Of a DNA stretch of 49,248 nucleotides, positions 213-49,248 are shown in pieces (positions within the stretch are counted from its first letter, which is position 1; each line of letters begins with the position of its first letter). This stretch comes from a virus (Duplodnaviria > Heunggongvirae > Uroviricota > Caudoviricetes), in the IMG/VR virus record IMGVR_UViG_2734482538_000012; one strand, 5' to 3'. The notes under the pieces are model-generated. The model did no database searches and was not told the origin of the DNA. It saw only the letters and a program-made list of their open reading frames with translations. Made by a program: the position numbers and the translations under genes.

Positions 213-797
213 TTACTCCCTGACAGGGTTCGTAGGCCACTCAATATCAGGTGCAGTTGACGTATCAACACGGTTCAGCAATACCCGATACTTTTTCCAT
301 GCTTCCAGCAACGAGATTTCTTCCTCCGTTGCAATTTCCAGATCTGCAGCATCCTGAAGCGGCGCAATATGCTCACTGGCTACCTGCATCAGGTTGTTTT
401 TTGTTTCTTCCGCCTCCCGGATCCGGAACAGTTTTTCTGCTTCCGTATCCTTCACCCAGGCTGTGCCGTTCCACTTCTGAAACTCCCCTTCCGGCGATAA
501 CCAGGTAACATTTTCCGGTAACGGACCGAGTTCAGAAATAAATAACGCGTCGCCGGAAGCCACGTCATAAACCGTTTTACCCCGATGATCTTCAACGAGA
601 TGCCACGATGACTCATCACTGTTGAAAACAGCCACGAAGCCAGCCGGAATATCTGGCGGTGCAATATCGGTACTGTTTGCTGGCAGACCTGTATGAGGCG
701 GAATATATGCATCACCTTCACCAATAAATTCATTAGTTCCGGCCAGCAGATTATAAATTTTTATGGTCCGTGGTTGTTCACTCATTCTGAATGCCAT
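213..797 (-). CDS. tfaR: Tail fibre assembly protein (Tfa family)
   Basis: 194 aa ORF directly downstream of the side tail fibre gene, start codon overlapping its stop; N-terminus [20 protein letters not shown] matches my recollection of Rac TfaR and lambda Tfa. Confidence 0.85.
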
Positions 798-31067: not shown

Positions 31068-31655
31068 TTTTCCTCACATATGTCATATAGTAAAGGATTA
31101 TATATACCGTTGTTTTGGACGCTCAAACAGCGAATCAGATCAAATAAAACGCACATTTGTTAACATTTACACAAAGTCTGCGTGGGATATTCTGAAAGAA
31201 TATCCATAATGTGGAGAGAATCTATTGAAGTGCATGGTGCCGGGTGCCTCCCGGTGAACAAAATGTTCGTGATACCTGTCGGCGACAGAAAAGGTTAATG
31301 GTATCACCCCACCGCACAGGGGGATTCACCATGCAGGAGTTTTCTTAGCAAACTCACTGCGCGCCCGGCAACTCCCAACCACATAAAATGCGGAGTTTGT
31401 GGCATTTATGCATATAACTCGCAGGAATTATCTTAAAAAACTGATGTCGATCCGGATTAAAAAGAAGCAGGTCATCATCAGATGACTGGAAAAAAGGAAA
31501 ACAAAAAATACTCATCATACAGTTTTGATTGCAGGGATGAGCCTGCTATGCACAATATGCAGAATATAAGCAAGATAAAAATATGCAGGCATATTATTTC
31601 GGATCTTGTTATTAACACAACCTTTTTAATAATCATTTGGCATACAATAAACCAG

Positions 31656-43862: not shown

Positions 43863-46463
43863 ATGAGCACAAAACCACTCTTCCTGTTACGGAAAGCGAA
43901 AAAATCATCCGGTGAACCTGACGTCGTCCTGTGGGCAAGCAACGATTTTGAATCGACCTGTGCCACTCTGGACTACCTGATCGTTAAGTCAGGTAAAAAA
44001 CTGAGCAGCTATTTTAAAGCTGTTGCCACGAATTTTCCTGTCGTTAATGACCTGCCCGCTGAAGGTGAGATCGATTTTACCTGGAGTGAACGCTATCAAC
44101 TCAGCAAAGACTCCATGACATGGGAACTAAAACCGGGAGCAGCACCAGACAACGCTCACTATCAAGGCAATACCAACGTCAACGGCGAAGACATGACTGA
44201 GATTGAGGAGAATATGCTACTCCCAATTTCTGGCCAGGAACTGCCCATTCGTTGGCTTGCTCAACACGGCAGCGAAAAACCGGTAACGCACGTTTCACGC
44301 GACGGACTCCAGGCATTACACATTGCTCGGGCTGAAGAACTACCGGCTGTTACTGCCCTGGCTGTTTCCCACAAAACCAGCCTGCTCGACCCGCTGGAAA
44401 TTCGCGAACTCCACAAACTGGTTCGTGACACTGACAAAGTTTTCCCTAATCCTGGTAATTCAAACCTGGGACTGATAACTGCTTTTTTCGAAGCATACCT
44501 GAACGCTGACTACACCGATCGAGGACTGCTGACAAAAGAGTGGATGAAGGGTAATCGTGTTTCACACATCACTCGCACGGCTTCCGGTGCTAATGCTGGC
44601 GGCGGAAACCTCACCGATCGCGGCGAAGGTTTCGTACACGATCTGACGTCACTGGCGCGGGACGTAGCCACTGGCGTACTGGCCCGTTCAATGGATCTGG
44701 ACATCTATAACCTTCATCCGGCACACGCTAAACGCATTGAGGAAATTATCGCTGAAAATAAACCGCCCTTTTCTGTTTTCCGCGACAAATTCATCACCAT
44801 GCCTGGCGGGCTGGATTATTCCCGCGCCATCGTGGTTGCGTCCGTAAAAGAAGCACCAATTGGGATCGAGGTCATCCCCGCGCACGTCACTGAATATCTG
44901 AACAAAGTACTGACTGAAACCGATCATGCCAACCCTGATCCGGAAATCGTGGATATTGCCTGCGGTCGCTCCTCTGCCCCGATGCCGCAGCGAGTAACAG
45001 AAGAAGGAAAACAGGATGATGAAGAAAAACCGCAACCATCTGGAACAACGGCAGTTGAACAGGGAGAGGCTGAAACAATGGAACCGGACGCAACTGAACA
45101 TCATCAGGACACGCAGCCGCTGGATGCTCAGTCACAGGTAAATTCTGTTGATGCGAAATATCAGGAACTGCGGGCAGAACTCCATGAAGCCCGGAAAAAC
45201 ATTCCATCAAAAAATCCTGTCGATGCCGATAAATTGCTTGCTGCATCACGTGGTGAATTTGTTGACGGAATTAGCGACCCGAACGATCCGAAATGGGTAA
45301 AGGGGATCCAGACTCGCGATTGTGTGTACCAGAACCAGCCAGAAACGGAAAAAACCAGCCCGGATATGAATCAACCTGAGCCAGTAGTGCAACAGGAACC
45401 GGAAATAGCCTGCAATGCCTGCGGCCAGACTGGCGGGGATAACTGCCCTGACTGTGGTGCGGTGATGGGCGACGCAACATACCAGGAAACATTCGATGAA
45501 GAGAGTCAGGTTGAAGCTAAGGAAAATGATCCGGAGGAAATGGAAGGCGCTGAACATCCGCACAATGAGAATGCTGGCAGCGATCCGCATCGCGATTGCA
45601 GTGATGAAACTGGCGAAGTCGCAGATCCCGTAATCGTAGAAGACATAGAGCCAGGTATTTATTACGGAATTTCGAATGAGAATTACCACGCGGGTCCCGG
45701 TGTCAGTAAGTCTCAGCTCGATGACATTGCTGATACTCCGGCACTGTATTTGTGGCGTAAAAATGCCCCCGTGGACACCACAAAGACAAAAACGCTCGAT
45801 TTAGGAACCGCTTTCCACTGCCGGGTACTTGAGCCGGAAGAATTCAGTAACCGCTTTATCGTAGCACCTGAATTTAACCGCCGGACAAACTCCGGAAAAG
45901 AAGAAGAGAAAGCGTTTCTGAGGGAATGCGCAAGCACAGGAAAAACGGTTATCACTGCCGAAGAAGGCCGGAAAATTGAACTCATGTATCAGAGCGTTAT
46001 GGCTTTGCCGCTGGGGCAATGGCTTGTTGAAAGCGCCGGACACGCTGAATCATCAATTTACTGGGAAGATCCTGAAACAGCAATTTTGTGTCGGTGCCGT
46101 CCGGACAAAATTATCCCTGAATTTCACTGGATCATGGACGTGAAAACTACGGCGGATATTCAACGATTCAAAACCGCTTATTACGACTACCGCTATCACG
46201 TTCAGGATGCATTCTACAGTGACGGTTATGAAGCACAGTTTGGAGTGCAGCCAACTTTCGTTTTTCTGGTTGCCAGCACAACTATTGAATGCGGACGTTA
46301 TCCGGTTGAAATTTTCATGATGGGCGAAGAAGCAAAACTGGCAGGTCAGCTGGAATATCACCGCAATCTGCGAACCCTGGCTGACTGCCTCAATACCGAT
46401 GAATGGCCAGCTATTAAGACGTTATCACTGCCCCGCTGGGCTAAGGAATATGCAAATGACTAA
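43863..46463 (+). CDS. recE: Exodeoxyribonuclease VIII (RecE)
   Basis: 866 aa, same length as K-12 RecE; C-terminal PD-(D/E)xK-type nuclease region; stop overlaps the recT start. Confidence 0.9.
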
Positions 46464-47265
46464 GCAACCACCAATCGCAAAAGCCGATCTGCAAAAAACT
46501 CAGGGAAACCGTGCACCAGCAGCAATTAAAAATAACGACGTGATTAGTTTTATTAACCAGCCATCAATGAAAGAGCAACTGGCAGCAGCTCTTCCACGCC
46601 ATATGACGGCTGAACGTATGATCCGTATCGCCACCACAGAAATTCGTAAAGTTCCGGCGTTAGGAAACTGTGACACTATGAGTTTTGTCAGTGCAATCGT
46701 ACAGTGTTCACAGCTCGGACTTGAGCCCGGTAGCGCCCTCGGTCATGCATATTTACTGCCTTTTGGTAATAAAAACGAAAAGAGCGGTAAAAAAAACGTT
46801 CAGCTAATCATTGGCTATCGCGGCATGATTGATCTGGCTCGCCGTTCAGGTCAAATCGCCAGCCTGTCAGCCCGTGTTGTCCGTGAAGGTGACGAGTTTA
46901 ATTTCGAATTTGGCCTTGATGAAAAGTTAATACACCGCCCAGGAGAAAACGAAGATGCCCCTGTTACCCACGTCTATGCTGTCGCAAGACTGAAAGACGG
47001 AGGTACTCAGTTTGAAGTTATGACGCGCAAACAGATTGAGCTGGTGCGCAGCCAGAGTAAAGCTGGTAATAACGGGCCGTGGGTAACTCACTGGGAAGAA
47101 ATGGCAAAGAAAACGGCTATTCGTCGCCTGTTCAAATATCTGCCCGTATCAATTGAGATCCAGCGTGCAGTATCAATGGATGAAAAGGAACCACTGACAA
47201 TCGATCCTGCAGATTCCTCTGTATTAACCGGGGAATACAGTGTAATCGATAATTCAGAGGAATAA
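46456..47265 (+). CDS. recT: Single-strand annealing recombinase RecT
   Basis: Track ORF 46399-47265; start [35 protein letters not shown] at 46456 gives 269 aa, matching my recollection of K-12 RecT. Confidence 0.9.
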
Positions 47266-47320
47266 TTCAGCCTGGCGGTGTAATGCACCGCCAACTTGAA
47301 ATATTTTTATGAGAAAAATT

Positions 47321-47470
47321 ATGAGATATGACAATGTTAAACCATGTCCATTTTGTGGTTGTCCATCAGTAACGGTGAAAGCCATTTCAGGATATTACCG
47401 AGCGAAGTGTAACGGATGCGAATCCCGAACCGGTTATGGTGGAAGTGAAAAAGAAGCACTCGAACGATGA
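47321..47470 (+). CDS. ralR: Restriction alleviation protein Lar/RalR (also the toxin of the RalR/RalA type I toxin-antitoxin pair in K-12)
   Basis: Hand translation MRYDNVKPCPFCGCPSVTVKAISGYYRAKCNGCESRTGYGGSEKEALER (49 aa) with the Lar-family KPCPFCG zinc-ribbon motif. Missing from the ORF track (below 60 aa). Confidence 0.7.
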   Translation: MRYDNVKPCPFCGCPSVTVKAISGYYRAKCNGCESRTGYGGSEKEALER

Positions 47471-47507
47471 AATAAACGAACCACTGGAAATAATAATGGA
47501 GGTGTTC

Positions 47508-47696
47508 ATGTATAAAATTACCGCCACTATTGAAAAGGAAGGTGGCACTCCTACTAACTGGACAAGATATTCAAAATCTAAACTAACGAAATCAGAATGC
47601 GAAAAAATGCTCTCAGGTAAAAAAGAAGCAGGCGTTTCCAGAGAGCAGAAAGTAAAACTGATAAATTTTAATTGCGAGAAACTTCAGTCCTCGTGA
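47508..47696 (+). CDS. ydaC: YdaC-like small protein
   Basis: Track ORF 47436-47696; likely start MYKITATIEKEGGTPTNWTRY at 47508 preceded by ggagg; gene order ralR / ydaC / xis as in Rac. Confidence 0.6.
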   Translation: MYKITATIEKEGGTPTNWTRYSKSKLTKSECEKMLSGKKEAGVSREQKVKLINFNCEKLQSS

Positions 47697-47795
47697 ATTG
47701 CATTGTATTCAAATTAAAACTTCATAGCTGATTATTAATAATCAACATCGGGCGTCAATTTAAGTCTAACATTGGCGCCTGCCAGAGGTGATGCG

Positions 47796-48011
47796 ATGGC
47801 ACAAGTAATCTTTAATGAAGAGTGGATGGTTGAATACGGCCTGATGCTTCGCACTGGTCTGGGGGCCAGACAAATTGAAGCATACCGCCAGAACTGTTGG
47901 GTGGAAGGCTTCCACTTCAAACGAGTATCTCCTTTAGGGAAGCCAGACAGTAAGCGAGGGATTATCTGGTATAACTATCCAAAGATAAATCAGTTTATCA
48001 AAGACTCATGA
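47796..48011 (+). CDS. xisR: Excisionase
   Basis: Track ORF begins with TTG at 47772; ATG at 47796 gives [41 protein letters not shown] (71 aa); immediately upstream of int. Confidence 0.75.
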
Positions 48012-48012
48012 T

Positions 48013-49248
48013 ATGTCTAAATTACCAACAGGTGTCGAGATTCGAGGTAAATACATTCGCATCTGGTTCATGTTTCGAGGAAAACGATGTCGGGAAACAT
48101 TGAAAGGCTGGGAGGTTACTAACAGTAACATTAAAAAAGCCGGGAATTTAAGAGCGTTGATAGTTCATGAAATCAATTCCGGTGAGTTTGAGTATTTAAG
48201 ACGTTTTCCCCAGTCCAGCACTGGGGCAAAAATGGTGACAACGAGGGTCATAAAAACGTTCGGGGAGCTTTGTGATATCTGGACAAAAATTAAAGAAACA
48301 GAGTTAACAACAAACACAATGAAGAAAACGAAATCACAATTAAAAACACTCAGGATAATAATTTGTGAGAGTACTCCGATATCGCATATTCGTTATAGCG
48401 ATATCTTAAACTACCGGAATGAACTGCTGCATGGAGAAACGCTTTACCTGGATAATCCAAGATCCAACAAAAAAGGAAGAACCGTGCGCACAGTTGATAA
48501 CTATATCGCCCTGCTCTGTTCGTTGTTACGTTTTGCGTATCAGTCGGGATTTATATCAACCAAACCATTTGAAGGAGTAAAGAAATTACAGAGAAACAGA
48601 ATAAAGCCTGACCCGTTATCTAAAACAGAATTCAATGCATTAATGGAAAGTGAAAAAGGACAGAGCCAGAACTTGTGGAAATTTGCCGTATACTCCGGGC
48701 TTCGTCACGGGGAACTGGCTGCTCTGGCGTGGGAGGATGTGGATTTCGAGAAGGGAGTTGTGAATGTCAGAAGAAACCTGACGATACTGGATATGTTCGG
48801 TCCCCCAAAAACAAATGCGGGGATCCGGACGGTAACACTACTGCAGCCTGCTCTTGAAGCACTGAAGGAGCAATACAAACTGACCGGGCATCATCGCAAA
48901 AGCGAAATCACTTTTTATCATCGGGAGTACGGCAGAACCGAAAAGCAAAAACTGCATTTTGTTTTCATGCCCAGAGTGTGTAACGGAAAACAGAAACCTT
49001 ATTACTCGGTAAGCAGTTTGGGTGCGAGATGGAATGCAGCAGTAAAACGTGCTGGTATTCGCCGCCGTAATCCGTACCATACGCGGCATACTTTTGCCTG
49101 CTGGCTGTTGACGGCAGGAGCGAACCCGGCGTTTATAGCCAGCCAGATGGGGCATGAAACTGCGCAGATGGTGTATGAAATTTACGGTATGTGGATTGAT
49201 GACATGAACGACGAACAGGTAGCCATGTTGAATGCGCGGTTATCGTAG
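48013..49248 (+). CDS. intR: Tyrosine-type site-specific integrase
   Basis: 411 aa; C-terminal catalytic region with conserved R...H.xR...Y residues (RHGELAALAWEDV; HTRHTFACWLL; YGMW); terminal gene of the xis/int module. Confidence 0.9.
   Translation: MSKLPTGVEIRGKYIRIWFMFRGKRCRETLKGWEVTNSNIKKAGNLRALIVHEINSGEFEYLRRFPQSSTGAKMVTTRVIKTFGELCDIWTKIKETELTTNTMKKTKSQLKTLRIIICESTPISHIRYSDILNYRNELLHGETLYLDNPRSNKKGRTVRTVDNYIALLCSLLRFAYQSGFISTKPFEGVKKLQRNRIKPDPLSKTEFNALMESEKGQSQNLWKFAVYSGLRHGELAALAWEDVDFEKGVVNVRRNLTILDMFGPPKTNAGIRTVTLLQPALEALKEQYKLTGHHRKSEITFYHREYGRTEKQKLHFVFMPRVCNGKQKPYYSVSSLGARWNAAVKRAGIRRRNPYHTRHTFACWLLTAGANPAFIASQMGHETAQMVYEIYGMWIDDMNDEQVAMLNARLS

What the first reader, a model, noticed from the sequence alone, without database searches (positions are those of the whole stretch)
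47265..47700. Lar-type ralR missing from the ORF track; possible RalR/RalA toxin-antitoxin locus
A 49-codon ORF at 47321-47470 encodes the Lar-family zinc-ribbon motif (MRYDNVKPCPFCG...) and is absent from the six-frame track because of the 60-aa cut-off; the track's overlapping ORF 47436-47696 is better read as ydaC starting at 47508. In K-12 Rac, RalR acts as a restriction-alleviation protein and as a DNase toxin countered by the antisense small RNA RalA. The antitoxin RNA would be encoded on the opposite strand of this same segment and cannot be seen by ORF calling. The ORF here is shorter than the 64 aa I recall for K-12, so the C-terminus may differ.
Basis: partly seen in the sequence, partly recalled or inferred. 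Interest (0 to 1): 0.45.

Follow-up and report, generated by a model that had tools for sequence, protein, structure and literature searches.

The report
Truncated ralR with intact RalA
This is the already-known RalR/RalA toxin-antitoxin locus of the E. coli Rac prophage, but here the toxin gene carries a premature stop that removes its most conserved motif, so the toxin is probably dead while the antitoxin RNA, which lies opposite the neighbouring gene and not opposite ralR, is intact.

Summary
The 49-codon ORF at 47321-47470 is real and is ralR. It passes Pfam Lar and NCBI's RalR model, and RefSeq annotates it as ralR in genomes identical to the window. It is short because of one nonsense change relative to K-12: TGG to TGA at codon 50. 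The protein therefore ends just before the W-N-(K/R)-R motif. W, N and the final R are invariant in 75 of 75 diverse Lar-family proteins. Published mutagenesis found that changes at residues 51 and 52 reduce toxicity, and a residue-52 mutant lost DNase activity. The toxin is therefore probably inactive, which is an inference. RalA is present, full length and identical to K-12, at 47514-47692 on the minus strand. Its 16-nt pairing site in ralR (47443-47458) is kept. ydaC starting at 47508 is confirmed and shows protein-coding selection. The truncated allele occurs in 310 of 5426 complete E. coli genomes, against about 1631 with TGG, and in three sequenced phages. The RalA:ralR pairing is not conserved in Salmonella- and Citrobacter-type loci. 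This is a known system with a minor natural variant, so interest is low.

The parts
46456..47265 (+). recT, the upstream neighbour (context)
   Evidence: Pfam RecT 192 bits. PGAP recT in the identical genome NCTC10444, whose locus coordinates are window +1.
47321..47470 (+). ralR, nonsense-truncated allele (49 aa; K-12 has 64 aa)
   Evidence: The alignment to K-12 shows residues 1-49 are identical.
47443..47458 (+). 16-nt RalA-pairing site inside the ralR coding region (AAGTGAAAAAGAAGCA), upstream of the premature stop
   Evidence: Located. The sequence is as given in Guo 2014. It is identical to K-12.
47468..47470 (+). Premature TGA stop; K-12 has TGG (Trp50). A linked synonymous change lies at 47465 (CGA versus AGA).
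   Evidence: Alignment. Allele counts: 310 genomes with TGA against 1631 with TGG.
47471..47515 (+). Former ralR codons 51-64 plus the old TAA stop, now untranslated. Identical to K-12. Contains the ydaC ribosome-binding site GGAGGT (47498-47503) and overlaps the ydaC start.
   Evidence: read directly from the sequence.
47508..47696 (+). ydaC / rcbA (DUF1187 family), 62 aa
   Evidence: Pfam PF06688 132 bits. NCBIfam NF007283 138.7 bits. PGAP call. Third-codon-position excess of substitutions across Salmonella- and Citrobacter-type loci.
47514..47692 (-). ralA, the 179-nt small-RNA antitoxin gene, wholly inside ydaC on the opposite strand
   Evidence: Rfam RF02694 at 225.1 bits against a gathering score of 170, model positions 1-179 of 179. 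Identical to K-12 ralA b4714. The 5' end at 47692 is 62 nt upstream of the repeat, as mapped in Guo 2014.
47615..47630 (-). RalA nucleotides 63-78 (TGCTTCTTTTTTACCT), complementary to the ralR site: 14 of 16 Watson-Crick pairs plus one G-U, with 11 contiguous
47731..47758 (-). Best sigma-70-like site upstream of ralA (TTGACG, 16 nt, AATAAT; 10 of 12 matches). This is a consensus match only. It would start transcription about 32 nt upstream of the mapped RalA 5' end.
47796..48011 (+). xisR excisionase (context)
   Evidence: Pfam DUF1233 74 bits. PGAP xisR.
48013..49248 (+). intR integrase, the end of the prophage next to ttcA (context)

Best explanation
The segment is the integrase-proximal end of a full-length Rac-type lambdoid prophage of E. 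coli: recT, ralR, rcbA(ydaC) with ralA on the opposite strand, xisR, intR. In K-12, RalR is a 64-aa Lar-family zinc-ribbon protein. It was first described as the restriction-alleviation function Lar and later reported as a DNase toxin. Its synthesis is blocked by the 179-nt Hfq-dependent RNA RalA, which is transcribed from the strand opposite ydaC and pairs in trans with a 16-nt site in the ralR coding region. In this window RalA and both 16-nt sites are identical to K-12, so the antitoxin side is intact. The ralR gene carries TGG to TGA at codon 50. Its product ends after Arg49, halfway through the predicted single C-terminal helix and just before the W-N-(K/R)-R motif. The most likely consequence, which is inferred and not shown, is a protein without the toxic/DNase activity, and probably without Lar activity. 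That would leave an orphan antitoxin RNA overlapping a real protein gene, rcbA. The truncated form is a derived minority allele that circulates with Rac-type prophages and phages.
For: Identity of the locus. Only 5 differences from K-12 in 546 nt, one of them the nonsense change. TGG is ancestral: Salmonella and Citrobacter homologues keep RWN(K/R)R, and TGG is in 1631 complete genomes against 310 for TGA. W50, N51 and R53 are 75 of 75 invariant among diverse single-domain Lar-family representatives, equal to the four zinc cysteines; position 52 is R or K in 63 of 75. The Lar model TIGR03655 is matched only over positions 1-49 of 55, and the RalR equivalog only over 1-49 of 64. Guo 2014 (PMC4041452) reports that changes at residues 14, 37, 39, 49, 51 and 52 reduce toxicity and that the purified residue-52 mutant does not cut DNA. 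The AlphaFold model of a 64-aa relative shows a zinc ribbon plus helix 43-58. RalA is full length and identical to K-12, and the pairing sites are present.
Against: No experiment has tested a protein truncated at residue 49. Point mutants at 51 and 52 do not prove that a deletion behaves the same way. The allele is otherwise undecayed and is kept in 310 genomes and 3 phage records, which could mean it still works or is simply young. The 75 family members were picked by a profile that contains the motif, so its invariance is somewhat favoured by selection. The structure model is only moderately confident (pLDDT 70, five-sequence alignment). UGA derived from UGG can be read through by tRNA-Trp (established knowledge), which would restore some wild-type protein.
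Confidence: 0.78

Rival explanations
1. The 49-aa RalR is still an active toxin or Lar protein, so the locus is a working RalR/RalA type I toxin-antitoxin pair as in K-12. On this view the C-terminal 15 residues are dispensable.
For: The zinc ribbon (C9, C12, C30, C33) and residues 1-49 are intact and identical to K-12. The protein still scores above the curated cut-offs. The allele is widespread and has no further damage. PGAP names it RalR without a pseudogene flag.
Against: It lacks W50, N51 and R53, which are invariant in the family. Changes at residues 51 and 52 reduce toxicity, and the residue-52 mutant has no DNase activity. The stop halves the only predicted helix.
Confidence: 0.1
2. 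The stop is leaky. UGA that arose from UGG is occasionally decoded by tRNA-Trp, giving a small amount of exactly wild-type 64-aa RalR. The allele would then be an attenuated toxin still kept in check by RalA, not a dead one.
For: The downstream 45 nt are still in frame and identical to K-12, up to the old TAA stop at 47513-47515. The stop is UGA followed by A. UGA read-through by tRNA-Trp in E. coli is established knowledge and was not tested here.
Against: Read-through is normally well below a few percent. The region is so similar to K-12 overall (5 differences in 546 nt) that conservation of the tail carries no signal. No data on expression are available.
Confidence: 0.07
3. The toxin-antitoxin reading is not the main biology of the locus. 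RalR is a Lar-type anti-restriction protein. rcbA/ydaC is a real protein gene. RalA is chiefly a cis-antisense regulator of rcbA or of the ralR-rcbA transcript. The 16-nt trans pairing would then be a feature of the E. coli lineage or of over-expression experiments.
For: ydaC substitutions fall mostly on third codon positions: 7/3/14, 17/11/35 and 0/4/13 for positions 1/2/3. ydaC has a strong GGAGGT ribosome-binding site and belongs to Pfam DUF1187. The lar-DUF1187 gene order is kept in Salmonella- and Citrobacter-type loci. There, RalA:ralR complementarity is only 7-8 nt, which is chance level, and no compensating change is seen. The predicted fold has no significant match in the PDB and no nuclease among the listed matches; the nearest shapes are Elf1-type zinc ribbons. 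A review notes that the locus is atypical and that 3'-end overlap pairing was never mapped.
Against: Guo 2014 showed rescue by RalA from a separate plasmid, loss of rescue on mutating the 16-nt repeat, and dependence on Hfq. They also reported that a stop codon or start-codon change in ydaC did not affect rescue, and they could not detect a YdaC protein. In E. coli the 11-nt perfect match is reached by only 2-4 of 300 shuffles.
Confidence: 0.25

Closest known systems
RalR/RalA type I toxin-antitoxin locus of the E. coli K-12 cryptic prophage Rac (ralR b1348, ralA b4714, rcbA b1347; Guo et al. 2014, PMC4041452)
   Same: Same gene order and position: recT-ralR-rcbA/ralA-xisR-intR next to ttcA. 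99% nucleotide identity. RalA is 179 of 179 nt identical. Both 16-nt pairing sites are identical. RalR residues 1-49 are identical.
   Different: TGG to TGA at ralR codon 50 gives 49 aa instead of 64 and removes WNKR and the tail. ralR no longer overlaps the rcbA start or the RalA 3' end. rcbA is 62 aa here and 69 aa in K-12; the K-12 form is a stop-loss extension, since TGA at this position is shared with Salmonella-type loci. There is one T fewer in the T-run upstream of ralR. The prophage here is about 48 kb and near complete, not the 23-kb K-12 remnant.
Lar-family restriction alleviation proteins (Pfam PF14354, TIGR03655; Lar of Rac, King and Murray 1995, cited from the reference list seen)
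   Same: CPFCG...C..C zinc ribbon and family scores above the cut-offs.
   Different: Lacks the family's invariant C-terminal W-N-(R/K)-R motif.
Rac-type lar-DUF1187 modules in Salmonella and Citrobacter prophages (loci L005-L009)
   Same: Same recE-recT-lar-DUF1187-xis-int order, and DUF1187 of 62-64 aa.
   Different: Those Lar proteins are full length (61-64 aa) with RWN(K/R)R. The RalA-like antisense sequence scores below the Rfam threshold (144, 141, 33 and 30 bits). They lack the 16-nt complementarity to ralR.

Membership tests
Lar family (PF14354 / TIGR03655) | Score above the curated cut-off of the family models | tested here: met
   Pfam 39.0 bits against 28.6. TIGR03655 40.3 bits against 39.6, which is only just above.
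Lar family (PF14354 / TIGR03655) | Four-cysteine zinc ribbon (CPFCG ... C..C) | tested here: met
   C9, C12, C30 and C33 are present. These columns are 75 of 75 invariant in the family sample.
Lar family (PF14354 / TIGR03655) | C-terminal W-N-(R/K)-R motif (W, N and the final R invariant) | tested here: not met
   The stop codon replaces W50, so N51, K52 and R53 are not translated.
RalR (NCBIfam equivalog NF007260) | Score above the equivalog cut-off | tested here: met
   126.9 bits against 113.
RalR (NCBIfam equivalog NF007260) | Full-length match to the 64-position model | tested here: not met
   Only positions 1-49 of 64 are matched. K-12 RalR matches 1-64 at 166 bits.
RalR (toxin of a type I TA system) | Toxic on induction; Mg/Ca-dependent DNase activity | not testable with these tools
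   Published point mutants at residues 51 and 52 lose toxicity, and the residue-52 mutant has no DNase activity. The window protein lacks both residues, so loss of activity is inferred.
RalA sRNA (Rfam RF02694) | Match at or above the Rfam gathering score, full length | tested here: met
   225.1 bits against 170, model positions 1-179 of 179, at 47514-47692 on the minus strand. Identical to K-12 ralA.
RalA sRNA (Rfam RF02694) | 16-nt complementarity to the ralR coding region (11 contiguous) | tested here: met
   ralR 47443-47458 against RalA nt 63-78: 14 Watson-Crick pairs plus 1 G-U, with 11 contiguous. Only 2 of 300 shuffles reach 11.
RalA sRNA (Rfam RF02694) | Transcribed, Hfq-dependent, blocks RalR synthesis | not testable with these tools
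   Shown for K-12 only. Here there is only a promoter-like site at 47758-47731 and the predicted 5' stem-loop and 3' hairpin.
DUF1187 / RcbA (PF06688) | Family score and evidence of a translated frame | tested here: met
   132.2 bits against 20.7. Third-position excess of substitutions between loci. GGAGGT lies 4 nt before the ATG.

The most novel reading that the evidence does not exclude
The truncated ralR is widespread, and the RalA:ralR pairing is missing from Salmonella- and Citrobacter-type loci that keep the lar-DUF1187 pair. Together these would mean that RalA's conserved role is cis-antisense control of the real protein gene rcbA (DUF1187). The textbook RalR/RalA 'DNase toxin-antitoxin' relationship would then be a K-12-lineage or over-expression feature, and natural populations would readily lose the toxin while keeping RalA and rcbA.
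Probability: 0.25. Interest if true: 0.45.

Novelty: already known. Interest (0 to 1): 0.2.

Why it matters
There are two practical points. First, annotation pipelines name this 49-aa product 'endodeoxyribonuclease toxin RalR' with no warning that it lacks the family's invariant motif, and they do not annotate ralA at all in these genomes. Counts of 'toxin-antitoxin systems' in about 300 complete E. coli genomes, and in some phages, are therefore probably inflated by a dead toxin and blind to the RNA partner. Second, the comparison suggests that the only reported DNase-type type I toxin-antitoxin pair rests on a pairing site that is not conserved outside E. coli, and that the 'non-coding' ydaC is under protein-level selection. 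Both are cheap to test and would refine how this system is cited.

Tried and rejected
- Full-length RNA-RNA duplex folding of ralR against RalA with shuffles was uninformative. It forces end-to-end pairing and gave z between -1.3 and +0.1 (an earlier attempt timed out). I replaced it with a longest-exact-complementarity test.
- A sequence search of the PDB with a RalR profile found only a chance zinc-ribbon match, aIF2-beta at E 0.46.
- A Foldseek search of the AlphaFold model against the PDB found nothing at E <= 0.001.
- The word-indexed homologue search returned only close relatives. The exhaustive profile search was needed to sample the family.
- The supplementary mutation table of Guo 2014 is not held, so I could not see whether a nonsense mutant near residue 50 was among their non-toxic clones.
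- A literature search for a described truncated ralR allele found nothing relevant. The 2025 restriction-modification review had no whole-word match for Lar or RalR.
- No intrinsic terminator was detected by the consensus scan in 47150-47850.
- RalA is not more stable than shuffled sequence, z -0.26, so folding energy gives no independent support for a structured RNA.
- I considered and rejected a sequencing error as the cause of the stop, because the exact 55-mer occurs in 310 complete genomes and 3 phage records.

Full report
**Observation.** The window carries an ATG-started ORF at 47321-47470: 49 codons followed by TGA, reading MRYDNVKPCPFCGCPSVTVKAISGYYRAKCNGCESRTGYGGSEKEALER. The mechanical ORF list shows it from an upstream ATG as a 53-aa ORF (47309-47470), which is below a 60-aa cut-off. 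The small ORF passes Pfam Lar_restr_allev (39 bits, cut-off 28.6) and NCBI's RalR equivalog NF007260 (126.9 bits, cut-off 113). A 601-nt stretch around it is 100% identical to many RefSeq E. coli chromosomes, in which exactly these coordinates are annotated ralR (WP_001443846.1). The second ORF read from ATG 47508 (62 aa) matches Pfam DUF1187 end to end (132 bits) and is the PGAP call.

**Context.** The last 25 kb of the window are 100% identical to E. coli NCTC10444. The annotation of that genome shows that the window spans almost a whole Rac-type lambdoid prophage of about 48 kb. It runs from tfaR and the tail genes through the head genes, trkG, the lysis genes, ydaU/V/T, the repressors, sieB, kilR, racC and recE to recT, ralR, DUF1187, xisR and intR, with ttcA just beyond the window's end. 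This is the Rac attachment site of K-12.

**Why the ORF is short.** Over 546 nt the window differs from K-12 MG1655 at five positions:
- One T fewer in the T-run upstream of ralR.
- 47465 C against A, which is synonymous.
- 47470 A against G, which turns Trp50 TGG into TGA.
- 47694 T against A, which makes rcbA end at 62 aa instead of 69.
- One intergenic change.

The 45 nt after the new stop are still identical to K-12 and still in frame up to the old TAA at 47513-47515. So the C-terminus is not different; it is cut off.

TGG is the ancestral state. Salmonella and Citrobacter homologues keep R-W-N-(K/R)-R at this place. I used 55-mers centred on the site, so that every 28-base seed must include it. 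The K-12-type allele is found in 1631 of 5426 complete E. coli genomes, and the TGA allele in 310, all as exact 55-mer matches. The exact allele is also present in three sequenced E. coli phage records, so it is not a sequencing error or a private mutation.

For rcbA the opposite holds. The TGA at 47694-47696 aligns with the stop of the Salmonella-type genes and is in 738 genomes. The 62-aa form is therefore the usual one, and K-12's 69 aa is a stop-loss extension.

**What the truncation removes.** A profile search of 1.84 billion representative proteins found 3968 Lar-family members. Among 75 single-domain representatives, W50, N51 and R53 are invariant (75 of 75), exactly like the four zinc-ribbon cysteines. 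Position 52 is R or K in 63 of 75. The Lar model TIGR03655 is matched over positions 1-55 by K-12 RalR but only 1-49 by the window protein.

An AlphaFold model of a 64-aa relative has moderate confidence (pLDDT 70). It shows three strands forming the zinc ribbon and one C-terminal helix, residues 43-58. The stop cuts this helix in half.

Guo et al. 2014 (PMC4041452) reported that changes at residues 14, 37, 39, 49, 51 and 52 reduce toxicity, and that the purified residue-52 mutant does not cleave DNA. I infer that the 49-aa product has lost the toxic activity, and probably Lar activity as well. This was not tested, and the paper's table of mutants is not available to me.

**The antitoxin.** Rfam finds RalA (RF02694) at 47514-47692 on the minus strand. 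The match is full length at 225.1 bits against a gathering score of 170 and is identical to K-12 ralA. It lies wholly inside ydaC/rcbA on the opposite strand.

According to the primary paper, RalA acts in trans through a 16-nt match to the ralR coding region and needs Hfq. In the window the two sites are at 47443-47458 (ralR) and 47615-47630 (RalA nt 63-78). They form 14 Watson-Crick pairs plus one G-U, with 11 contiguous pairs. The RalA 5' end at 47692 is 62 nt upstream of the site, as was mapped experimentally. The ralR site lies upstream of the premature stop, so it is retained.

The best promoter-like site on the minus strand (47758-47731) would start transcription about 32 nt upstream of the mapped end. 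I could not resolve this discrepancy. RalA's predicted fold shows the published 5' stem-loop and 3' hairpin, but it is no more stable than shuffled sequence.

**Comparison with related loci.** Salmonella-type loci (L005-L007) and Citrobacter-type loci (L008, L009) keep the order recE-recT-lar-DUF1187-xis-int. Two things stand out.
- **ydaC is under coding selection.** Substitutions in ydaC fall mainly on third codon positions: 7/3/14, 17/11/35 and 0/4/13 for positions 1/2/3. The plus-strand frame is therefore under protein-level selection. This fits the earlier rcbA work cited by Guo et al. (reference 34). [quoted passage not shown]
- **The trans pairing is not conserved.** The RalA:ralR complementarity is 7-8 nt in those loci, which is chance level, and no compensating change is seen. 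In-register identity of the two 16-mers is 8, 8 and 6 of 16, against 14 of 16 in E. coli. The Rfam RalA score also falls to 144, 141, 33 and 30 bits.

The trans pairing is thus a feature of the E. coli Rac lineage only. A 2014 review already called the locus atypical and noted that pairing through overlapping 3' ends had not been examined. If ralR and rcbA are co-transcribed, RalA is fully complementary to that mRNA in cis.

**Mechanism proposed.**
- Shown here: the locus is ralR-rcbA/ralA of Rac. ralR has a nonsense codon at position 50. RalA and both pairing sites are intact.
- From the literature: in K-12, RalA blocks RalR synthesis with Hfq, and residues 51 and 52 matter for toxicity.
- Inferred: the 49-aa protein is inactive, leaving RalA as an orphan antitoxin that overlaps a real gene.

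Rival readings are that the short protein still works, that UGA read-through by tRNA-Trp restores a trickle of wild-type protein, or that the toxin-antitoxin reading is secondary to cis-antisense control of rcbA.

**Novelty and verdict.** The system, the RNA family and even this short protein are already in the public databases. What is added here is small:
- The cause of the shortness is a W50 stop.
- The stop removes the family's invariant motif.
- The correct place of RalA is opposite ydaC, not ralR.
- The frequency of the allele is now known.
- The trans-pairing site is not conserved outside E. coli.

Interest is low (0.2). The finding is correct as an observation and partly correct as an interpretation.

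Noticed in passing
window 1-49248: The window is almost an entire Rac-type prophage of about 48 kb, with tail, head, lysis, trkG, replication, immunity, kilR/sieB and recET modules. It lies between sitD and ttcA and is 100% identical over the last 25 kb to strain NCTC10444. It is far more complete than the 23-kb K-12 remnant.
   Followed up: partly
window 47508-47696 (+), compared with L005-L009: ydaC/rcbA (DUF1187) shows a clear third-codon-position excess of substitutions across genera, and a strong GGAGGT ribosome-binding site lies at 47498-47503. It therefore behaves as a real protein gene, contrary to the primary RalA paper's conclusion that ydaC is not translated.
   Followed up: yes
L005:2501-2876, L008:2501-2898, L009:2501-2898: In Salmonella- and Citrobacter-type lar-DUF1187 loci the 16-nt RalA:ralR complementarity is absent (longest match 7-8 nt, at chance level), and the Rfam RalA score falls below threshold. 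The trans-pairing is specific to the E. coli Rac lineage.
   Followed up: yes
database proteins P0012 (67 aa) and P0015 (96 aa); equivalent to window 47443-47458 / 47615-47630: Some E. coli genomes encode in-frame RalR-YdaC fusions. In P0012 the junction is exactly the 16-nt direct repeat (..GSEKEA|GVSREQ..). In P0015 it is a second short repeat (..SEKE|GGTPTNW..). The repeats that give RalA its target therefore also cause deletions that remove part of ralA.
   Followed up: partly
window 47694-47696, compared with K-12 L002: K-12's 69-aa RcbA is a stop-loss extension (TGA to AGA). The 62-aa form in the window shares its stop position with Salmonella-type genes and is in 738 complete E. coli genomes. 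The variable base lies 2 nt upstream of the mapped RalA 5' end.
   Followed up: partly
window 47274-47292 (+): A perfect 7-bp hairpin (GGCGGTG-TAATG-CACCGCC) lies just after the recT stop and before ralR. It is not followed directly by a T-run and was not called as a terminator. The T-run 47304-47308 just downstream is one T shorter than in K-12.
   Followed up: no
window 47731-47758 (-): The best sigma-70-like site for ralA would start transcription near 47724, about 32 nt upstream of the published RalA 5' end at 47692. The primary transcript may be longer and processed, or a weaker promoter may be used.
   Followed up: no
RefSeq records NZ_LR134092.1 and NZ_AP018802.1 (L004, L001, L003): PGAP annotates the 49-aa ralR as a toxin with no partial or pseudogene flag, and it annotates no ralA ncRNA, although Rfam RF02694 matches at 225 bits. 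Only the curated K-12 record lists ralA.
   Followed up: yes
window 256-454 (-) and 31178-31364 (-): There are two further Rfam matches above gathering score: IS009 (220.9 bits) near the left end, between sitD and tfaR, and STnc100 (86.6 bits) in the region between the lysis and late-regulation genes. No tRNA genes are present in the window.
   Followed up: no
model m74520995dbb8 (64-aa RalR relative P0004): The predicted RalR fold is a small zinc ribbon plus one helix. Its nearest, non-significant structural neighbours are Elf1/ELOF1-type zinc ribbons, and nothing resembles a known nuclease fold. The reported DNase activity rests on one study.
   Followed up: partly
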